Below, in pieces: positions 5,486-38,776 of a stretch of 64,000 nucleotides of DNA. The DNA is from a virus (lineage: Duplodnaviria > Caudoviricetes). The position numbers and the translations under genes were made by a program. Position 1 is the first letter of the stretch. Each line of letters begins with the position of its first letter. The stretch is from positions 160,001 through 224,000 of IMG/VR virus record IMGVR_UViG_3300015050_001523. One strand, written 5' to 3'. The notes under the pieces are model-generated. The model made no database searches. It had not been told where the DNA came from and saw nothing but the letters and a program-made list of their open reading frames with translations.

Positions 5486-6514
5486 TCATTTTAAATCTTG
5501 AACCATTTGATGAAAATATTTTCTTGCATTTTCATTTACGGCTTTGGAAACTTGGCTCCATTCTAATTTGTTGTCTTCTAACTCAAGACAACACTCTCTT
5601 GCAACATCATTGCCAATCCACTTCAAATAATGTCCAGTGCTACTAAGCTCAAGAGGATGGCCAGCTTCTTTGATTGCCTCAATTCCTTGGTTTAGCCTGT
5701 TTGGAGTTAGTGCGAACCTAACAAAATCTTCAATATTCTGAATAATTTCAGGATTTAATTGTTCTTTATGTTCTTTCGGAGATGTATTTTTATGCTTCTC
5801 TCCTTTTGTTTTAAAGAACAAGTCTGTATTTCCCCAAAATTTTCCAATTGGCTGCCAAACAATTCCTTCTCCCAAGCCAGAAATATTCCATTGTTTTGCC
5901 CAAGGACATTCCTTTTCTACTTCATCTGTCCATTTAGTAAATTGAGCTACAGCATTTTCTTTGCTTTCTGTATTATCAAAATCGACTGTGATATTCCATT
6001 GAGGAATATCAAACACAGAAAAGATATTATCTTTTTTAAACTTTTCTTCAAAAGAAGGTTTTATATCAATATAGTATTCTTTTCCACCATCTTCAATAAC
6101 CTTGAAAGCAAAAAGAACCCATTGTTTTTCTACAAGCTGGCTAATTGCCATTCCTTTTTGAATCCCGGGGCCGATCCACTCTCCATAAATAATCAAATCA
6201 TTGTTTGGATCTATTCCATAAGAGTCTCGAACTATTTTAGCTATTTCTAAAATAGAATCCTTCTTTTTTTCAACAAAAAAAGCAAATCCTGCATTGTCTG
6301 AAACTGGAGTTATTACTCTTGTTCGGCTTTGAGCAATTAGTTCTCCATCTTTTGTATGGTGGACGCTTGAATTTGTTCCATGTAATTTGATCGTCCCTCT
6401 AAAAGAAACAGGTTCTTTTATTTTGTGAATTTCAGGAACAGCTTCAGATTTATTTGTTTTGCTTATAAATCTAGAAACTTGATAAAATGCATCTATATGT
6501 GTAAATGAGTACAT
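5486..6514 (-). CDS. RNA ligase, Rnl2 family
   Basis: Motif I KLHGTN, YGEWIGPGIQKG, FAFKV, GEGIVW, FKTKGEKH. Confidence 0.85.
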   Translation of the reverse strand: MYSFTHIDAFYQVSRFISKTNKSEAVPEIHKIKEPVSFRGTIKLHGTNSSVHHTKDGELIAQSRTRVITPVSDNAGFAFFVEKKKDSILEIAKIVRDSYGIDPNNDLIIYGEWIGPGIQKGMAISQLVEKQWVLFAFKVIEDGGKEYYIDIKPSFEEKFKKDNIFSVFDIPQWNITVDFDNTESKENAVAQFTKWTDEVEKECPWAKQWNISGLGEGIVWQPIGKFWGNTDLFFKTKGEKHKNTSPKEHKEQLNPEIIQNIEDFVRFALTPNRLNQGIEAIKEAGHPLELSSTGHYLKWIGNDVARECCLELEDNKLEWSQVSKAVNENARKYFHQMVQDLK

Positions 6515-19587: not shown

Positions 19588-19986
19588 CTATACCACTAAA
19601 TCTTGCTCTTGCAAACCAGGAAGGACAAGATTTTTTATTTCCTGATATCCTTCTCCACCCAATCCTAAATAACTTTTGATAAAGTATTCTGCTTGACTAT
19701 CCATTTCAAGAACTTTTTTCAAAATTGATCTTTCTCTAATTTTATCAATTTCCATGTAATTTTTCATATATTTTACAATATCTTGAAAGAGTTTTGCCTT
19801 TTCAGGACTAATCTTGTTTGAAGGTTGTTGTGGCCTTTTGGCCATTTTTTGTCTTTCTTCTTCTTTTTGTTTTTTATATAATGCAGAATTTTCTCTGTTT
19901 TGAGTATAGTCTATAAATTCTTTTTCATCAAATTCATATTCAAATAAAATTCTTCTTATTGTTTCTCTTAATAAAGATGGCCGCAT
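19588..19986 (-). CDS. Hypothetical protein with LRETIRRILFE N-terminus
   Basis: 132-aa ORF preceded by TATTTA-N5-ATG. Confidence 0.65.
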   Translation of the reverse strand: MRPSLLRETIRRILFEYEFDEKEFIDYTQNRENSALYKKQKEEERQKMAKRPQQPSNKISPEKAKLFQDIVKYMKNYMEIDKIRERSILKKVLEMDSQAEYFIKSYLGLGGEGYQEIKNLVLPGLQEQDLVV

Positions 19987-20019
19987 ATTAGTAAATATGC
20001 GGCCATCAACAAAGAATCA

Positions 20020-20142
20020 TAGGCAAAATATATAGAGATTATTTTTAACGTGCAGCCCTTACACTTCAGACACAAAGTGTCCGTTAGGAATCGAACCTAA
20101 TCTTTTCTATTAACAGTAGATGTAATCCCTAAAAGCATCCTA
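20020..20142 (-). ncRNA. Y RNA-like (YrlA-like) RNA, copy A, with permuted tRNA-mimic module
   Basis: TAGGATG...TTGCCTA scaffold enclosing T-arm TTAGG-TTCGATT-CCTAA, loop-closed acceptor CGGACAC/GTGTCTG and D-arm; begins 3 nt after the Ro60 stop. Confidence 0.75.
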
Positions 20143-20145
20143 TAT

Positions 20146-21747
20146 TTATATTTTATTATAAATGTCTATATTGTTTATAACGTCAAGCCAATAAAATCCA
20201 TTTTTTCCATGTTTTGCAAATTGTGCAATTGTGTCCCAAACAGTATCAGAGAATCCTCCAATATTTAGAATATCATCACGATTTGGAGCCTGTGATGAAG
20301 TATAAGGTTGAATATCGATGCAAACCATTTTTGCATTTGGATTATTCTTTTTGACCATATCCCAATATTTAAGTGTTTCTGTTTGATAATGGCCTCTTGC
20401 TCGATCTCCAATCCAAGACTCATTATCTGAAACATAAATAACCAAATCAACATTTTGTTTTGTTTCTGCAAGATGTTTGACTCCAAGATAAGAGTATGTT
20501 CCTCCTCCTGGATATGCAGACAATTTTTTAGCATTTGTCATCACAGAATCTCTTGGATTCAATTGTAAATTCATTTTTAATGCTGTATCAAATGGAATAA
20601 CATTTGATTGTCTATTTTTTCTTAGAATTGCTGAAGCTACAAGAGCTGCAACATCAATGCATCTAATTGAAGATGGTTTTTTATTTCGTCCAGTAATTGA
20701 CGAACCCATTGAACCTGATACATCAGGAAACACCCAGATATTTCCTGGGATGTTTGGAATATTTTCAAGCGAAATATCAAGAGCATCTTGAAGAGCTTCT
20801 GTAATTTCAAAAGGCATACCTTTTGTTGATACAGTGTTCATATATGCAGCCATTAGCTGATATGGGAACACTTTTGCATTTTTGATATCCTCTGGATCTC
20901 TTAGTCTTTGAGCAATAAGATTTACCATTTCTTTTTTCTCAAAGACATTATGACGCATAAATGTATTTAGATTCATGCGAGTCATTGTCCATTTTGCATT
21001 TCTTGCAATTTCTTTCCAATGACTATCATTTAGTCCCAAGCTATCTAACATTTGAAATGGAAGATCTGGAATTGTTACTTCGTCCGAATTTGATGCAATT
21101 GCACTTTTGCAATTTTCATAATTTTTAATTATTTCAGGAAGATCCTTTTCTGAGGAATTAAACAGTTTTCCACTCACTTCTTTGTTCCCAATTAAATAGG
21201 AATAAAGAGCTTCCTGTTGCGCATCTTGTGGTTTTGGATGCACCATTTTAATAATGTCTGCAACTGATGGAGTATTTCCAACACTATCTTTAAAAAGACG
21301 ACTATTATTCATTCGCACAAACCACATTTTTAATTGTCGGCGCATTGCTCTTGGAAAGCTTTTTTTCCCATCAACAAGTCCAGAACGAACAAACTGAACA
21401 TGGTTTCGAACCATTTTTGTGTTGTCCATTACAGTTGGAAAAACTTCCTCATATAATGTTGGATTTCTGAATGCCAAATAAGAAAGTAAAAGAGCTGGCA
21501 TGTCTTTCATAAACGCATTTTTGCGTGAATAAATCGCAAGTTTTGCTATAAAAACTGTTCCGTCAGGTGTTTCTGAAATCTTATTTACAAGATTTTTAAC
21601 AGTTTCTAGCTGAGCATCTTCTGATGCATAATAAGTGTCTGAAATACACCCAGTTGCCGCAATTTGCGCCAACGAAGCACGATCTCCAAGATCGTATGCA
21701 AGACCACCAGCTTCATTTACAGTTAGTTTATTTGATTTATTTTTCAT
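20146..21747 (-). CDS. rsr: Ro60 / TROVE-domain RNA-binding protein (Rsr-like) with C-terminal vWA
   Basis: VNEAGGLAY, AKLAIYSRKNAFMKDMPALL, MLDSL, WTMTRMNLNTFMRH, FPYQLMAAY, MIDAS DVSGSM, GGTYS, SDNESW, GGFSD. Confidence 0.9.
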   Translation of the reverse strand: MKNKSNKLTVNEAGGLAYDLGDRASLAQIAATGCISDTYYASEDAQLETVKNLVNKISETPDGTVFIAKLAIYSRKNAFMKDMPALLLSYLAFRNPTLYEEVFPTVMDNTKMVRNHVQFVRSGLVDGKKSFPRAMRRQLKMWFVRMNNSRLFKDSVGNTPSVADIIKMVHPKPQDAQQEALYSYLIGNKEVSGKLFNSSEKDLPEIIKNYENCKSAIASNSDEVTIPDLPFQMLDSLGLNDSHWKEIARNAKWTMTRMNLNTFMRHNVFEKKEMVNLIAQRLRDPEDIKNAKVFPYQLMAAYMNTVSTKGMPFEITEALQDALDISLENIPNIPGNIWVFPDVSGSMGSSITGRNKKPSSIRCIDVAALVASAILRKNRQSNVIPFDTALKMNLQLNPRDSVMTNAKKLSAYPGGGTYSYLGVKHLAETKQNVDLVIYVSDNESWIGDRARGHYQTETLKYWDMVKKNNPNAKMVCIDIQPYTSSQAPNRDDILNIGGFSDTVWDTIAQFAKHGKNGFYWLDVINNIDIYNKI

Positions 21748-21775
21748 ATTTTTATCCTTTTAATCTTAAGGCAAC

Positions 21776-22042
21776 TCAGTAATATTTTGTTTCTGGTTGA
21801 AACTTAAATGTTTTAAATATTTCTTCTAAACATTCATCACAAATAGAAAATGAGTAACAAACACTATCACAGAGACCTTTCTGGTCTCCATTGATCTCAA
21901 TTTCTGCTAACCCATAATGGGAATTATTTTTATTTTCACAATTGACCTCATAGTGGTCGCAGCCGAATCTGATTCCGCATTTATTACAAATAATATCTGT
22001 TTCTTTTTTTGTTTCTTTAATTGGCATTTTAAGCCCTTTCAA
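21776..22042 (-). CDS. Hypothetical Zn-finger protein
   Basis: ICNKCG ... ICDEC. Confidence 0.6.
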   Translation of the reverse strand: MKGLKMPIKETKKETDIICNKCGIRFGCDHYEVNCENKNNSHYGLAEIEINGDQKGLCDSVCYSFSICDECLEEIFKTFKFQPETKYY

Positions 22043-22074
22043 AATGAATTTGGGAGATTATAAAAAATTTAAAT

Positions 22075-22200
22075 TAGGCAAAAGTGATAAAGATATTTTT
22101 TCGCGCTTTAACCAATTAAGCTATCCCTTTATATAAAGGGAACAGGACTCGAACCTGTAACTCGTCTTCCGTATAGATGTAATCCCTATCTGACATCCTA
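22075..22200 (-). ncRNA. Y RNA-like (YrlA-like) RNA, copy B, with permuted tRNA-mimic module
   Basis: Scaffold plus T-arm ACAGG-TTCGAGT-CCTGT, acceptor TCCCTTT-ATAT-AAAGGGA, TA, D-arm GCTT-AATTGGTTA-AAGC. Confidence 0.75.
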
Positions 22201-22205
22201 ACTTA

Positions 22206-22278
22206 TGCTGTGAGCGAGGGTCGAACTCGCGCTGGATAGGTTCTTAGCCTATTGTCTCTGCCATTGGACTACCACAGC
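22206..22278 (-). tRNA. tRNA with AAG anticodon (Leu), short variable loop
   Basis: GCTGTGG/TCACAGC, ATAGG-CT-AAG-AA-CCTAT, 5-nt variable loop, A73. Confidence 0.75.
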
Positions 22279-22352
22279 AAATGAAACGGGTCAAGAGAAA
22301 TATAGCCATTTCTTGTTGGGATTTGAACCCAATATATTTCTTACTTACCCTA

Positions 22353-23105: not shown

Positions 23106-23112
23106 TAAAATA

Positions 23113-23198
23113 TAGGCAAAAATTTGAAAAGATTGGGTATCGGCGCTTTATAGGATATCTCCTACCGATTTTTGCATGTAATCCTTTTTAGCATCCTA
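23113..23198 (-). ncRNA. Y RNA-like scaffold, copy C (hairpin cargo)
   Basis: TAGGATGC...GGATTACA...ATCTTTT...TTGCCTA with internal ATCGG-TAGGA/TCCTA-CCGAT. Confidence 0.7.
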
Positions 23199-23205
23199 CA
23201 TAAAG

Positions 23206-23280
23206 GTTGATTGACGGGACTTGCACCCGCTAAATTCTGATTCACAGTCAGAAGCCAATCTTCTTTGGTCGTCAATCAAC
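23206..23280 (-). tRNA. tRNA-His(GTG)
   Basis: G-1:C73 extended acceptor, CT-GTG-AA. Confidence 0.8.
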
Positions 23281-23289
23281 ATAAATTAT

Positions 23290-23396
23290 TAGGCAATATA
23301 ATACAAAATGTTATTGATGAATTGGCGTCCCAATTAGCGAGTCCCCCCGTTAATCGAACCCCAAACCGATTGCGATGTAATTCTGTATCCATCCTA
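23290..23396 (-). ncRNA. Y RNA-like scaffold, copy D
   Basis: TAGGATG...ATACAGAAT/ATTTTGTAT stem, TTACATC, GGTTCGATT remnant, AATTGG/CCAATT hairpin, TTGCCTA. Confidence 0.65.
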
Positions 23397-23399
23397 ATA

Positions 23400-23472
23400 T
23401 GGGAAGTCCTGGTTTCGAACCAGGCCATCAGAGGCTTCAACTCTGCGTAACTACCATGCTCACTCACTTCCC
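23400..23472 (-). tRNA. tRNA-Phe(GAA)
   Basis: GGGAAGT/ACTTCCC, TT-GAA-GC. Confidence 0.8.
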
Positions 23473-23487
23473 GAAATCATAAAAAAT

Positions 23488-23560
23488 TAGGCAAAACAAT
23501 ATAAAACTTTTGTGTAATCGCCGGTTAACAGCGAGCAGGTGTATTTCTATATTCATCCTA
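23488..23560 (-). ncRNA. Y RNA-like scaffold, copy E
   Basis: TAGGATG, AATATAGAA/TTTTATATT stem, TCGCTG/CGGCGA hairpin, TTGCCTA. Confidence 0.65.
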
Positions 23561-23569
23561 ATAAAATTT

Positions 23570-23724
23570 AAAAGCCGGTCTTTTCCCGGCTGTCAAGCAG
23601 GCTTCACTAAAAGATTCGTATCTATCTTTCACAACTCCCGGAGGTAATGGGGTTGGGCCTATTTGTGACGTTATTTGTTTTGTTTCCGCAACGCACCAAC
23701 GGAATCCTCTTTTGCGCAGGAACT
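23570..23724 (-). ncRNA. Unassigned structured RNA ending in AGCCGG-GAAAAGA-CCGGCT hairpin
   Basis: Hairpins TCCT/AGGA, TTCCG/CGGAA, TCACAA/TTGTGA, AAAGAT/ATCTTT, then terminal hairpin plus U-tract. Confidence 0.4.
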
Positions 23725-23732
23725 AAAAATTT

Positions 23733-23793
23733 TAGGCAAAAACTATAAGATGTTTTTATCAATAAATGCGATGTAATCCTATAAAGCATCCTA
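23733..23793 (-). ncRNA. Y RNA-like scaffold, copy F (minimal)
   Basis: TAGGATGC, TATAGGAT/ATCTTATA, TACATC, TTGCCTA; 61 nt. Confidence 0.7.
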
Positions 23794-23813
23794 AAATAAA
23801 ATTATAAATAAAA

Positions 23814-23875
23814 TAGGCAAAAATTTGAAAAGATTTTTTGTATTTGGTAAAAATGTAATCCTTTCTAGCATCCTA
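23814..23875 (-). ncRNA. Y RNA-like scaffold, copy G (minimal)
   Basis: TAGGATGC, GAAAGGAT/ATCTTTTC, TACAT, TTGCCTA; 62 nt. Confidence 0.7.
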
Positions 23876-23883
23876 TTAAATTA

Positions 23884-38617: not shown

Positions 38618-38691
38618 TGAGCCAACAAGGATTTGAACCTTGAACCTAGAAATTAAGAGTTTCTTGCTCTACCATGTTGAGCTATTGGCCC
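38618..38691 (-). tRNA. tRNA-Lys(CTT)
   Basis: GGGCCAA/TTGGCTC, CT-CTT-AA. Confidence 0.85.
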
Positions 38692-38703
38692 TTTTTACTT
38701 GAA

Positions 38704-38776
38704 TGAACCCAGTAAGACTTGAACTTACAACCTTGAGATTAAAAGCCTCTTGCTCTACCAATTGAGCTATGGGTCC
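38704..38776 (-). tRNA. tRNA-Lys(TTT)
   Basis: GGACCCA/TGGGTTC, CT-TTT-AA. Confidence 0.85.

What the first reader, a model, noticed from the sequence alone, without database searches (positions are those of the whole stretch)
20020..22200. Two circularly permuted tRNA mimics (T-arm, loop-closed acceptor stem, D-arm) embedded in Y scaffolds
Seen, copy A: T-arm TTAGG-TTCGATT-CCTAA (20084-20100), 7-bp acceptor hairpin CGGACAC-TTT-GTGTCTG (20067-20083), D-like arm GTGT-AAGGGCT-GCAC. Copy B: T-arm ACAGG-TTCGAGT-CCTGT (22142-22158), TCCCTTT-ATAT-AAAGGGA (22124-22141), TA, then GCTT-AATTGGTTA-AAGC. The scaffold replaces the anticodon arm. Established: this order is the YrlA architecture. Inference: these present a tRNA elbow with no anticodon loop or 3' end, so they could be decoys or baits for host anti-tRNA nucleases or tRNA-modifying enzymes. 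The two mimics have unrelated sequences, implying independent capture of tRNA modules.
Basis: partly seen in the sequence, partly recalled or inferred. Interest (0 to 1): 0.75.

Follow-up and report, generated by a model that had tools for sequence, protein, structure and literature searches.

The report
Phage Ro60 flanked by tRNA-like Y RNAs
A giant phage carries a Ro60 gene flanked by two small RNAs of the known YrlA type, each a Ro60-binding stem holding a rearranged tRNA look-alike; this is a divergent new example of a known class, though here the look-alike also keeps an anticodon-like arm.

Summary
On the minus strand, copy A (20019-20143) and copy B (22074-22201) each have a T arm, a loop-closed 7-bp acceptor hairpin and a D arm at the stated coordinates, inside a two-stem scaffold. 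They flank a 533-aa Ro60/Rsr gene (20146-21747) in a 322-kb phage with 37 called tRNA genes.

A covariance model built only from relatives scores both at about 98 bits (E about 1e-23). In 38 phage-linked homologues all five helices covary (97% paired). The same model hits bacterial RNAs that pass Rfam's YrlA cut-off, so these are divergent, AT-rich YrlA Y RNAs. YrlA was reported in 22 phages in 2014.

- **Anticodon arm.** The scaffold does not replace it. Both copies keep a 7-nt loop on a 5-bp stem whose 5' strand is interrupted by the scaffold. After in-silico re-permutation ARAGORN calls them tRNA-Asn(GUU) and tRNA-Arg(ACG). This is the "V" stem-loop of Chen 2014, re-read.
- **Independent capture.** It is not supported. 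Both module types recur across related phages, and mixed forms exist.

The decoy idea is untested and already published. Five more Y scaffolds lie at 23112-23876. Verdict: new member of a known kind.

The parts
20019..20143 (-). Y RNA copy A (125 nt), YrlA class. Outer stem 20139-20143 with 20019-20023; AUGC 20135-20138; inner stem 20123-20131 with 20033-20041. It starts 2 nt after the Ro60 stop codon.
   Evidence: 98.3 bits with the window-free model R2
20106..20120 (-). Copy A anticodon-like hairpin UCUA-CUGUUAA-UAGA. UU at 20047-20048, just after G26 at 20049, can pair with AA at 20104-20105 to complete a 5-bp stem.
   Evidence: ARAGORN calls the re-permuted module tRNA-Asn(GTT)
20084..20100 (-). 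Copy A T arm, UUAGG-UUCGAUU-CCUAA
20067..20083 (-). Copy A loop-closed 7-bp acceptor hairpin, CGGACAC-UUU-GUGUCUG
   Evidence: The L010 orthologue has a different sequence but keeps the pairing
20050..20064 (-). Copy A D arm, GUGU-AAGGGCU-GCAC, with G18 G19. It is preceded by AA where tRNA has U8 N9.
19976..20007 (-). Intrinsic-terminator-like hairpin (14-bp stem followed by a T run) just after copy A
20146..21747 (-). Ro60/Rsr orthologue, 533 aa (TROVE plus Ro60-type vWA domain)
   Evidence: Pfam. Full-length matches to solved Rsr 2NVO, Thermus phage Ro60 9KOP and Xenopus Ro60 1YVP. Homologues named Ro by their sources
22074..22201 (-). Y RNA copy B (128 nt), YrlA class. Outer stem 22197-22201 with 22074-22078; AUGU 22193-22196; inner stem 22182-22190 with 22086-22094. 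It starts 4-5 nt after tRNA-Leu(AAG).
   Evidence: 98.8 bits with R2
22163..22177 (-). Copy B anticodon-like arm: hairpin UCU-AUACGGA-AGA, then CG (22163-22164) pairing with CG at 22102-22103 just after G26 (22104).
   Evidence: (ARAGORN: tRNA-Arg(ACG) after re-permutation), 78, 86
22142..22158 (-). Copy B T arm, ACAGG-UUCGAGU-CCUGU
22124..22141 (-). Copy B loop-closed 7-bp acceptor hairpin, UCCCUUU-AUAU-AAAGGGA
22105..22121 (-). Copy B D arm, GCUU-AAUUGGUUA-AAGC, preceded by U8 A9
23112..23876 (-). Five further Y scaffolds without a full tRNA module: E 23112-23199, F 23289-23397, G about 23488-23562, C 23732-23794, D 23813-23876. They are interleaved with tRNA genes.
   Evidence: G is supported by sequence reading and folding only.

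Best explanation
Copies A and B are YrlA-class Y RNAs, the RNA partners of the phage's own Ro60 protein.

Shown:
- Each is a two-stem scaffold whose apical domain is a circularly permuted tRNA cloverleaf. The order is anticodon-like hairpin, 4-nt variable loop, T arm, 7-bp acceptor stem closed by a 3-4-nt loop, positions 8-9, D arm, purine 26, then 1-2 (copy A) or 2 (copy B) bases that pair back next to the hairpin.
- The old tRNA ends are therefore joined, and the scaffold enters through a break in the 5' strand of the anticodon stem.

Inferred, from established Ro60/Y RNA biology:
- The invariant AUGC, the G.U-bearing inner helix and UUACAU bind Ro60.
- The tRNA-shaped domain is handled by tRNA-recognising enzymes. 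RNase P cutting in the acceptor loop is likely, because the stem is 7 bp; T- and D-loop modifiers may also act on it.
- That domain serves as the gate or tether that couples Ro60 to a partner for surveillance or decay of damaged structured RNAs, most plausibly tRNAs, during infection.
- The RNAs are released from tRNA and Ro60 co-transcripts by tRNA-end processing.
- The two copies are old paralogues, not fresh captures.
For: Identity:
- The Ro60 gene lies between the two RNAs on the same strand.
- R2, built from relatives only, gives 98-99 bits for both copies.
- All five helices covary in 38 sequences.
- tRNA tertiary positions are conserved in the family: U8 33/38, A14 36/38, G18 and G19 31/38 each, the T loop UUCRA nearly invariant, purine 26 in 36/38.
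- Bacterial RNAs hit by R2 pass Rfam YrlA's cut-off at 69.6-83.9 bits.

Anticodon-like arm:
- 28 of 38 phage-linked rows have a 5-bp stem with a 7-nt loop placed 4-5 nt before the T stem; shuffles give a mean of 1.6 and a maximum of 5. For bacterial rows it is 60 of 112, against a shuffle mean of 2.65.
- The loop signature is U33 in 24/33, purine 37 in 32/33, A38 in 28/33.
- The pairs formed after position 26 occur in 29/35 phage-linked and 93/112 bacterial rows. When the partner regions are swapped between rows the means are 11.4 and 36.7.
- ARAGORN accepts both re-permuted modules as tRNAs.

Context:
- B, D, E and F start 2-7 nt after tRNA 3' ends. A follows the Ro60 stop codon and precedes a terminator.
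- The phage has Rnl1- and Rnl2-type RNA ligases. RtcB lies just upstream of Ro60 in three relatives.

Literature: YrlA is modified by TruB and DusA. The 7-bp-acceptor YrlA of M. smegmatis is cut by RNase P, gains CCA and stays bound to Rsr (PMC4201824). A Thermus phage Ro60 binds phage Y-like RNAs and host PNPase (PMC12135203).
Against: - No expression, binding or processing data exist for this phage, and no RNA runs hold it.
- Neither copy reaches Rfam's YrlA cut-off: B scores 35.7 against 69, and A is not reported.
- The 5' motif is AGGAUGC rather than the published GNCGAAN0-1G.
- Copy A has A where tRNA has U8.
- The cis part of the anticodon-like stem is only 3-4 bp, and Chen 2014 read the same hairpin as a variable arm.
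- The covariation counts come from alignments fitted to the model.
- This phage lacks RtcB and a CCA-adding enzyme.
- The closest cultured Ro60 phage, Myxococcus phage Mx1, shows no such RNA within 5 kb of its Ro60 gene.
- The effector partner is unknown.
Confidence: 0.7

Rival explanations
1. Decoy or competitive inhibitor. The tRNA-shaped domains soak up host tRNA-targeting defence nucleases or tRNA-modifying enzymes and so protect the phage's and host's real tRNAs.
For: - Both copies present a full cloverleaf with an anticodon-like 7-nt loop.
- They sit in a 37-tRNA phage genome that also carries RNA ligases.
- B-type loops keep G36 G37 A38 in 8 phage-linked rows, and the loop region is identical between B and L012 although their acceptor stems differ.
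- Hughes 2020 suggested YrlA as a competitive inhibitor of an anticodon nuclease (PMC7790460).
- Phage tRNAs are known to counter such defences (PMC10264068, PMC11464382).
Against: - The 'anticodon' triplets differ among orthologues (GUU, GAU, GCA, UAU, CAA and others), so no single nuclease target is mimicked.
- The stem is nicked by the scaffold.
- A decoy gives no reason for a conserved Ro60-binding scaffold or for linkage to Ro60.
- No test was run here.
Confidence: 0.18
2. The two modules were captured independently from two different tRNA genes. A plausible route is the 3' half of one tRNA gene plus the 5' half of the next gene in a tandem array.
For: - A and B are 53% identical, no more alike than unrelated tRNAs.
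- Adjacent tRNA-Lys genes (window 38656-38744) weakly match the permuted model at 28 bits, which shows that tandem genes mimic this layout.
- L117:925-1057 carries a tRNA-like module in a different order, so rearrangements do occur in the family.
Against: - Both copies share the same break point, the same closed acceptor and the same scaffold.
- Both module types recur in phages with 44-68% identical Ro60.
- L143:2577 combines A's D arm (14 of 15 bases) with B's loop type.
- Neither module is closer than 59-64% to any of the phage's 37 tRNAs, where the best-partner median among real tRNAs is 66%.
- Bacterial YrlAs already have this design.
Confidence: 0.2
3. [quoted passage not shown] That molecule is charged and used in translation, or serves as a repair or splint substrate.
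For: - The acceptor stems are 7 bp, and M. smegmatis YrlA is cut by RNase P and gains CCA in vivo.
- ARAGORN accepts the re-permuted modules as tRNA-Asn(GUU) and tRNA-Arg(ACG).
- No tRNA-Arg(ACG) gene is called in the genome.
Against: - The triplet is not conserved among orthologues.
- The genome already has tRNA-Asn(GUU).
- The anticodon stem is interrupted and carries a bulky scaffold.
- No CCA is encoded and the phage has no CCA-adding enzyme.
- No such use of a Y RNA is on record.
Confidence: 0.04
4. Chance resemblance or decayed tRNA gene debris within a tRNA array, with no function.
For: - The region is packed with tRNA genes.
- Single-sequence folding energies are not significant (z about -1).
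Against: - E about 1e-23 with a model that never saw the window.
- Compensatory changes in all helices across phages and bacteria.
- Constant linkage to Ro60.
Confidence: 0.01

Closest known systems
YrlA (Rfam RF02553), the tRNA-like bacterial and phage Y RNAs of Chen et al. 2014 (PMC4201824); crystal structure of the S. Typhimurium domain by Wang et al. 2018 (10.1101/312249)
   Same: - Encoded next to Ro60 on the same strand.
- A terminal stem with a conserved 5' motif ending in AUG.
- The order T arm, loop-closed acceptor, D arm.
- Conserved tRNA tertiary positions.
- A fourth hairpin upstream of the T arm that begins after a conserved YUAY (here UUAC).
- Several Y RNAs per locus.
- Bacterial relatives found with my model pass the Rfam cut-off.
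   Different: - Both window copies score below the Rfam cut-off (B 35.7 bits; A not reported).
- The 5' motif is AGGAUGC rather than GNCGAAN0-1G.
- The sequences are AT-rich (34-37% GC).
- S. Typhimurium YrlA has a 6-bp acceptor and no anticodon loop. These copies have 7-bp acceptors and a 7-nt loop on a split 5-bp stem.
- They are two of seven Y scaffolds set in a phage tRNA array.
M. smegmatis YrlA (Chen et al. 2014)
   Same: [quoted passage not shown]
   Different: Processing is not shown here. The host is unknown, and this phage encodes no CCA-adding enzyme.
Thermus phage phiLo Ro60 with Yrl1 and Yrl2 (PMC12135203)
   Same: A phage-encoded Ro60 with phage-encoded Y-like RNAs next to the gene. 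The study reports a complex with host PNPase.
   Different: The passages I read describe the phiLo RNAs as stem-bulge-stem Y RNAs with a CGAA motif and mention no tRNA-like domain. The proteins are distant (phmmer E 2e-13).
Circularly permuted tRNA genes (as in the red alga Cyanidioschyzon merolae; from my own knowledge)
   Same: The 3' half of the cloverleaf precedes the 5' half, with the acceptor strands joined by a short linker.
   Different: Those genes are processed into ordinary tRNAs. Here the break in the anticodon stem is bridged permanently by a Ro60-binding scaffold, and the 'anticodon' is not conserved.

Membership tests
YrlA Y RNA (Chen 2014; Rfam RF02553) | Encoded within about 4 kb of a Ro60 orthologue and on the same strand | tested here: met
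   Ro60 ORF is at 20146-21747 (-). A ends 2 nt downstream of it and B lies about 330 nt upstream.
YrlA Y RNA (Chen 2014; Rfam RF02553) | The 5' and 3' ends pair, with the conserved 5' motif GNCGAAN0-1G thought to contact Ro60 | tested here: inconclusive
   The terminal stem is present and covaries. The motif is AGGAUGC in A and AGGAUGU in B. AUG is invariant in 38 rows, and relatives L143 and L164 read GGCGAAUGC, which fits the published motif.
YrlA Y RNA (Chen 2014; Rfam RF02553) | T arm and D arm with tRNA-like conserved nucleotides, separated by a closed 'acceptor' stem-loop | tested here: met
YrlA Y RNA (Chen 2014; Rfam RF02553) | Score at or above Rfam's gathering cut-off (69 bits) | tested here: not met
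   B scores 35.7 bits (E 1.7e-5) and A is not reported. RNAs in bacterial Ro60 loci that my model R2 hits at 83-103 bits score 69.6-83.9 bits with Rfam, so the family is continuous and the window copies are divergent members.
YrlA Y RNA (Chen 2014; Rfam RF02553) | Bound by Ro60/Rsr; carries pseudouridine 55 and dihydrouridine | not testable with these tools
   Needs immunoprecipitation and modification mapping.
tRNA (RF00005 / ARAGORN) | Cloverleaf in native 5'-to-3' order with free acceptor ends | tested here: not met
   No tRNA is called at either site. Only after in-silico re-permutation and adding ACCA does ARAGORN call Asn(GTT) and Arg(ACG).
Permuted tRNA gene that matures into a normal tRNA | Conserved anticodon identity and processing to a contiguous tRNA | tested here: not met
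   The triplets vary among orthologues. The break in the anticodon stem is occupied by a conserved scaffold of about 55 nt. Processing itself is not testable here.

The most novel reading that the evidence does not exclude
The apical domains are complete permuted tRNAs, anticodon arm included. Once RNase P opens the acceptor loop, each becomes a Ro60-tethered two-piece tRNA that engages anticodon-directed host factors such as defence nucleases or TrmD-type modifiers. The phage's Ro60 particle would then act as a sensor, bait or shield against tRNA-targeting immunity, with the seven different Y RNA cargoes addressing different partners.
Probability: 0.15. Interest if true: 0.8.

Novelty: new member of a known kind. 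Interest (0 to 1): 0.4.

Why it matters
The role of the tRNA-like domain of bacterial Y RNAs is still open, and phage Ro60 systems are barely studied. This locus gives a compact test set. One phage Ro60 gene has seven co-oriented Y RNAs that share one scaffold and carry different apical domains, and two of those domains are near-complete tRNA cloverleaves with 7-bp acceptors.

The comparative data also suggest that the published 'V' stem-loop of YrlA is better read as an anticodon arm with a split stem. If probing confirms that, more tRNA-binding factors become candidate partners, including those that act on the anticodon loop. It would also tie Ro60 particles more closely to the contest between phages and tRNA-targeting defences. 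As it stands, the finding extends a known family and does not reveal a new one.

Tried and rejected
- blastn of 19900-22300 against 50,697 phage records found no match.
- A pattern scan of IMG/VR for the 5' scaffold motif returned 119 stretches, nearly all chance. Only L117 and L136 carried real scaffolds.
- The closest cultured Ro60 phage is Myxococcus phage Mx1 (45% identity). It has no model hit within 5 kb of its Ro60 gene.
- RtcB and a CCA-adding enzyme were sought in the phage genome and not found.
- A search for RNA sequencing runs found only DNA metagenomes with small shares, so I did not lay reads.
- The 88-aa ORF between B and Ro60 is conserved only in the 90% relative, so it is not treated as part of the system.
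- I looked for a donor tRNA for either module among the phage's 37 tRNAs and found none; the best identities are 59-64%, which is background.
- Single-sequence folding z-scores are about -1 and carry no weight.
- A first regular expression for scaffolds was too strict and missed most copies, so I replaced it.
- Two reviews (PMC6047535, PMC10870794) are not held.
- I first took the anticodon-like hairpin for a new element. Chen 2014 had already noted it as 'V', so I downgraded the claim to a re-reading.
Full report
**Setting.** The window is bases 160001-224000 of a 322,518-base IMG/VR virus record. The record is 33.6% GC and estimated 93% complete. ARAGORN tRNA genes in the genome, 28 of them in the window, all on the minus strand. 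ORF 20146-21747 (-) encodes a 533-aa Ro60/Rsr orthologue. Pfam finds a TROVE domain and a Ro60-type vWA domain. The protein matches solved Rsr 2NVO, Thermus phage Ro60 9KOP/9L5Y, and human and Xenopus Ro60 over its full length. There are thousands of homologues, many named 60-kDa SS-A/Ro by their sources.

**Checking the observation.**
- Copy A is 20143 to 20019 and copy B is 22201 to 22074.
- They share a scaffold: a 5-bp outer stem, AUGC (AUGU in B), a 9-bp inner stem, UUACAUC, then the module.
- After the module come an A-rich linker, AUCUYU, and UUGCC followed by the outer-stem partner.
- Minimum-energy folds reproduce both stems, the T arm, the closed acceptor and the D arm. The energies are not better than shuffles (z about -1), so stability alone proves nothing.
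- Rfam YrlA (RF02553) hits B at 35.7 bits, E 1.7e-5, below its cut-off of 69. It does not report A.

**Comparative evidence.** I fetched contigs encoding Ro60 proteins 52-90% identical, 58 Ro60 loci from IMG/VR and 80 from bacterial genomes.
- The same scaffold recurs next to Ro60, often several times per locus.
- RNAalifold on 14 tRNA-like copies found the outer stem, inner stem, T arm and acceptor hairpin. Compensatory changes occur at 20 of 24 pairs.
- A covariance model (R1) realigned 38 full-length copies.
  - On that alignment 97.4% of cells are paired, against 65.2% in shuffles and 42-49% with slid partners.
  - The covariation score is 0.884 against 0.248.
  - All five helices, the D arm included, show double changes.
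  - This alignment is fitted to the structure, which inflates pairing somewhat.
- As a cleaner test I built R2 from 36 relatives only, with no window or L010 rows.
  - Over the whole genome it scores B at 98.8 bits (E 8e-24) and A at 98.3 bits (E 1e-23).
- tRNA tertiary positions are conserved in the family.
  - U8 33/38, A14 36/38, purine 15 35/38, G18 and G19 31/38 each, A21 33/38.
  - The T loop is U-U-C-R-A, and position 26 is a purine in 36/38.
  - Copy A departs at position 8, where it has A.

**Family assignment.** R2 finds 151 matches in the 80 bacterial Ro60 loci. In nine of those loci, Rfam's YrlA model scores several of the same RNAs above its cut-off: 83.9, 82.9, 82.5, 72.5, 71.5 and 69.6 bits. 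The window copies are therefore divergent, AT-rich members of the YrlA family. Chen et al. reported that family near Ro60 in 254 bacteria and 22 phages (PMC4201824). The published 5' motif GNCGAAN0-1G appears here as AGGAUGC. Relatives such as L143 and L164 read GGCGAAUGC, which links the two forms.

**The anticodon arm.** It does not.
- Between UUACA and the variable loop, A has UCUA-CUGUUAA-UAGA and B has UCU-AUACGGA-AGA.
- In B, the two bases after purine 26 (CG) pair with the two bases that follow the hairpin (CG). In A, UU pairs with AA in the same position, or one of these pairs forms within the hairpin instead.
- Together these give a 5-bp stem with a 7-nt loop, 4 nt before the T stem. 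That is tRNA geometry, with the scaffold entering through a break in the 5' strand of the stem.
- Across the 38 rows, 28 show such a stem. Shuffles give a mean of 1.6 and a maximum of 5 in 200.
- The preference is specific to a 7-nt loop and a spacer of about 5 nt.
- Loop positions look like anticodon loops: U33 24/33, purine 37 32/33, A38 28/33.
- The pairs after position 26 occur in 29/35 phage-linked and 93/112 bacterial rows. When partner regions are swapped between rows the means are 11.4 and 36.7.
- The same arm is present in 60/112 bacterial rows (shuffle mean 2.65), including RNAs that pass Rfam's cut-off.
- When I reorder the window's own bases into tRNA order and add ACCA, ARAGORN calls tRNA-Asn(GTT) for A and tRNA-Arg(ACG) for B.

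This hairpin is not new. [quoted passage not shown] Wang 2018 states that the S. Typhimurium YrlA 'lacks the anticodon loop'. My contribution is a re-reading backed by geometry and loop composition. It is not a new element.

**Origin of the two modules.** A and B are 53% identical. That equals the median between unrelated tRNAs of this genome (55%). Neither is closer than 59-64% to any of the 37 tRNAs, so sequence alone cannot separate capture from divergence. Three things argue against independent capture:
- both copies share the same break point, the same closure and the same scaffold;
- A-type D arms (GUGUAA...) and B-type D arms (AGCUCA...) recur in phages whose Ro60 is 44-68% identical, and the A type usually lies 3' of Ro60;
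- L143:2577 joins A's D arm to B's loop type.

Two observations keep rearrangement possible. Adjacent tRNA-Lys genes weakly match the permuted model (28 bits). One Y RNA, L117:925-1057, carries its tRNA-like arms in a different order.

**Surroundings.** Five more Y scaffolds lie at 23112-23876. They have the same stems but short or unrelated apical domains.
- B, D, E and F begin 2-7 nt after tRNA 3' ends.
- A begins 2 nt after the Ro60 stop codon and is followed by a 14-bp terminator hairpin.
- This layout suggests release by tRNA-end processing.
- The phage lacks RtcB and a CCA-adding enzyme.
- It has Rnl2-type and Rnl1-type RNA ligases.
- In three relatives RtcB sits directly upstream of Ro60, echoing the bacterial rsr-yrlBA-rtcBA operon (PMC7790460).

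**Mechanism.** What is shown is the architecture, its conservation and its linkage to Ro60. The rest is inferred.
- Ro60 is inferred to bind through the AUGC, inner-helix and UUACAU region.
- tRNA enzymes are inferred to recognise the module. RNase P cutting is plausible because the acceptor is 7 bp, the feature Chen 2014 linked to cleavage and CCA addition in M. smegmatis.
- The module is inferred to act as gate or tether in RNA surveillance, as in the Ro60-Y RNA-PNPase machine and the Thermus phage complex.
- The decoy idea remains open. However, the triplets vary among orthologues, and a decoy would not need Ro60.
- B-type loops conserve G36 G37 A38, the dinucleotide context used by TrmD (my own knowledge). 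That is a lead, not a result.
- No RNA data exist for this phage.

**Verdict.** It is a divergent new member of the YrlA family in a jumbo phage. After my own analysis, the scan's index showed that the seven-scaffold array had also been noted on this same stretch.

Noticed in passing
window 23112-23876 (-): Five more Y scaffolds (E 23112-23199, F 23289-23397, G about 23488-23562, C 23732-23794, D 23813-23876). They have the same two stems but short or unrelated apical domains. F has a degenerate T-loop-like GGGGUUCGAUU.
   Followed up: partly
window 22280-22352 (-): A 73-nt element between tRNA-Leu(CAA) and tRNA-Leu(AAG). It has a perfect T arm (UUGGG-UUCAAAU-CCCAA) inside a long stem and no Y scaffold. 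Folding z is -2.56. No tRNA tool calls it, and no close relative covers it, so covariation could not be tested.
   Followed up: partly
window about 23210-23286 (-): A tRNA-His-like gene (loop CUGUGAA, an extra 5' G, an atypical T loop UGCAAGU) that both ARAGORN and Rfam miss. Otherwise no tRNA-His is called in the genome.
   Followed up: no
window 38656-38744 (-): The junction of two adjacent tRNA-Lys genes (3' half, spacer, 5' half) matches the permuted Y-module model at 28 bits. This is a natural template for how permuted modules could arise.
   Followed up: no
L117:925-1057: A Y scaffold whose cargo has tRNA-like arms in a different order: a hairpin, then a D arm, then an anticodon arm with CAU, then a T arm.
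   Followed up: no
L203, L206, L226, L233 (Pyrinomonadaceae and Acidobacteria MAG contigs): Bacterial Ro60 loci where about 7 to 20 tRNA genes in tight arrays lie just upstream of two or three YrlA RNAs and Ro60. This looks like the phage arrangement and may be a mobile or prophage island.
   Followed up: no
L013:1371-2609, L014:613-1866, L016:540-2375: RtcB RNA ligase lies directly upstream of Ro60 in three related phage contigs, with an intein in L016. This phage has no RtcB but carries Rnl2-like genes (one at window 5831-6394) and an Rnl1-like gene.
   Followed up: partly
L015:4998-5088, L017:4776-4872: Y scaffolds in relatives whose cargo is only a T arm plus a closed hairpin, with no D arm. 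They are intermediate forms between the short Y RNAs and the full tRNA-like ones.
   Followed up: no
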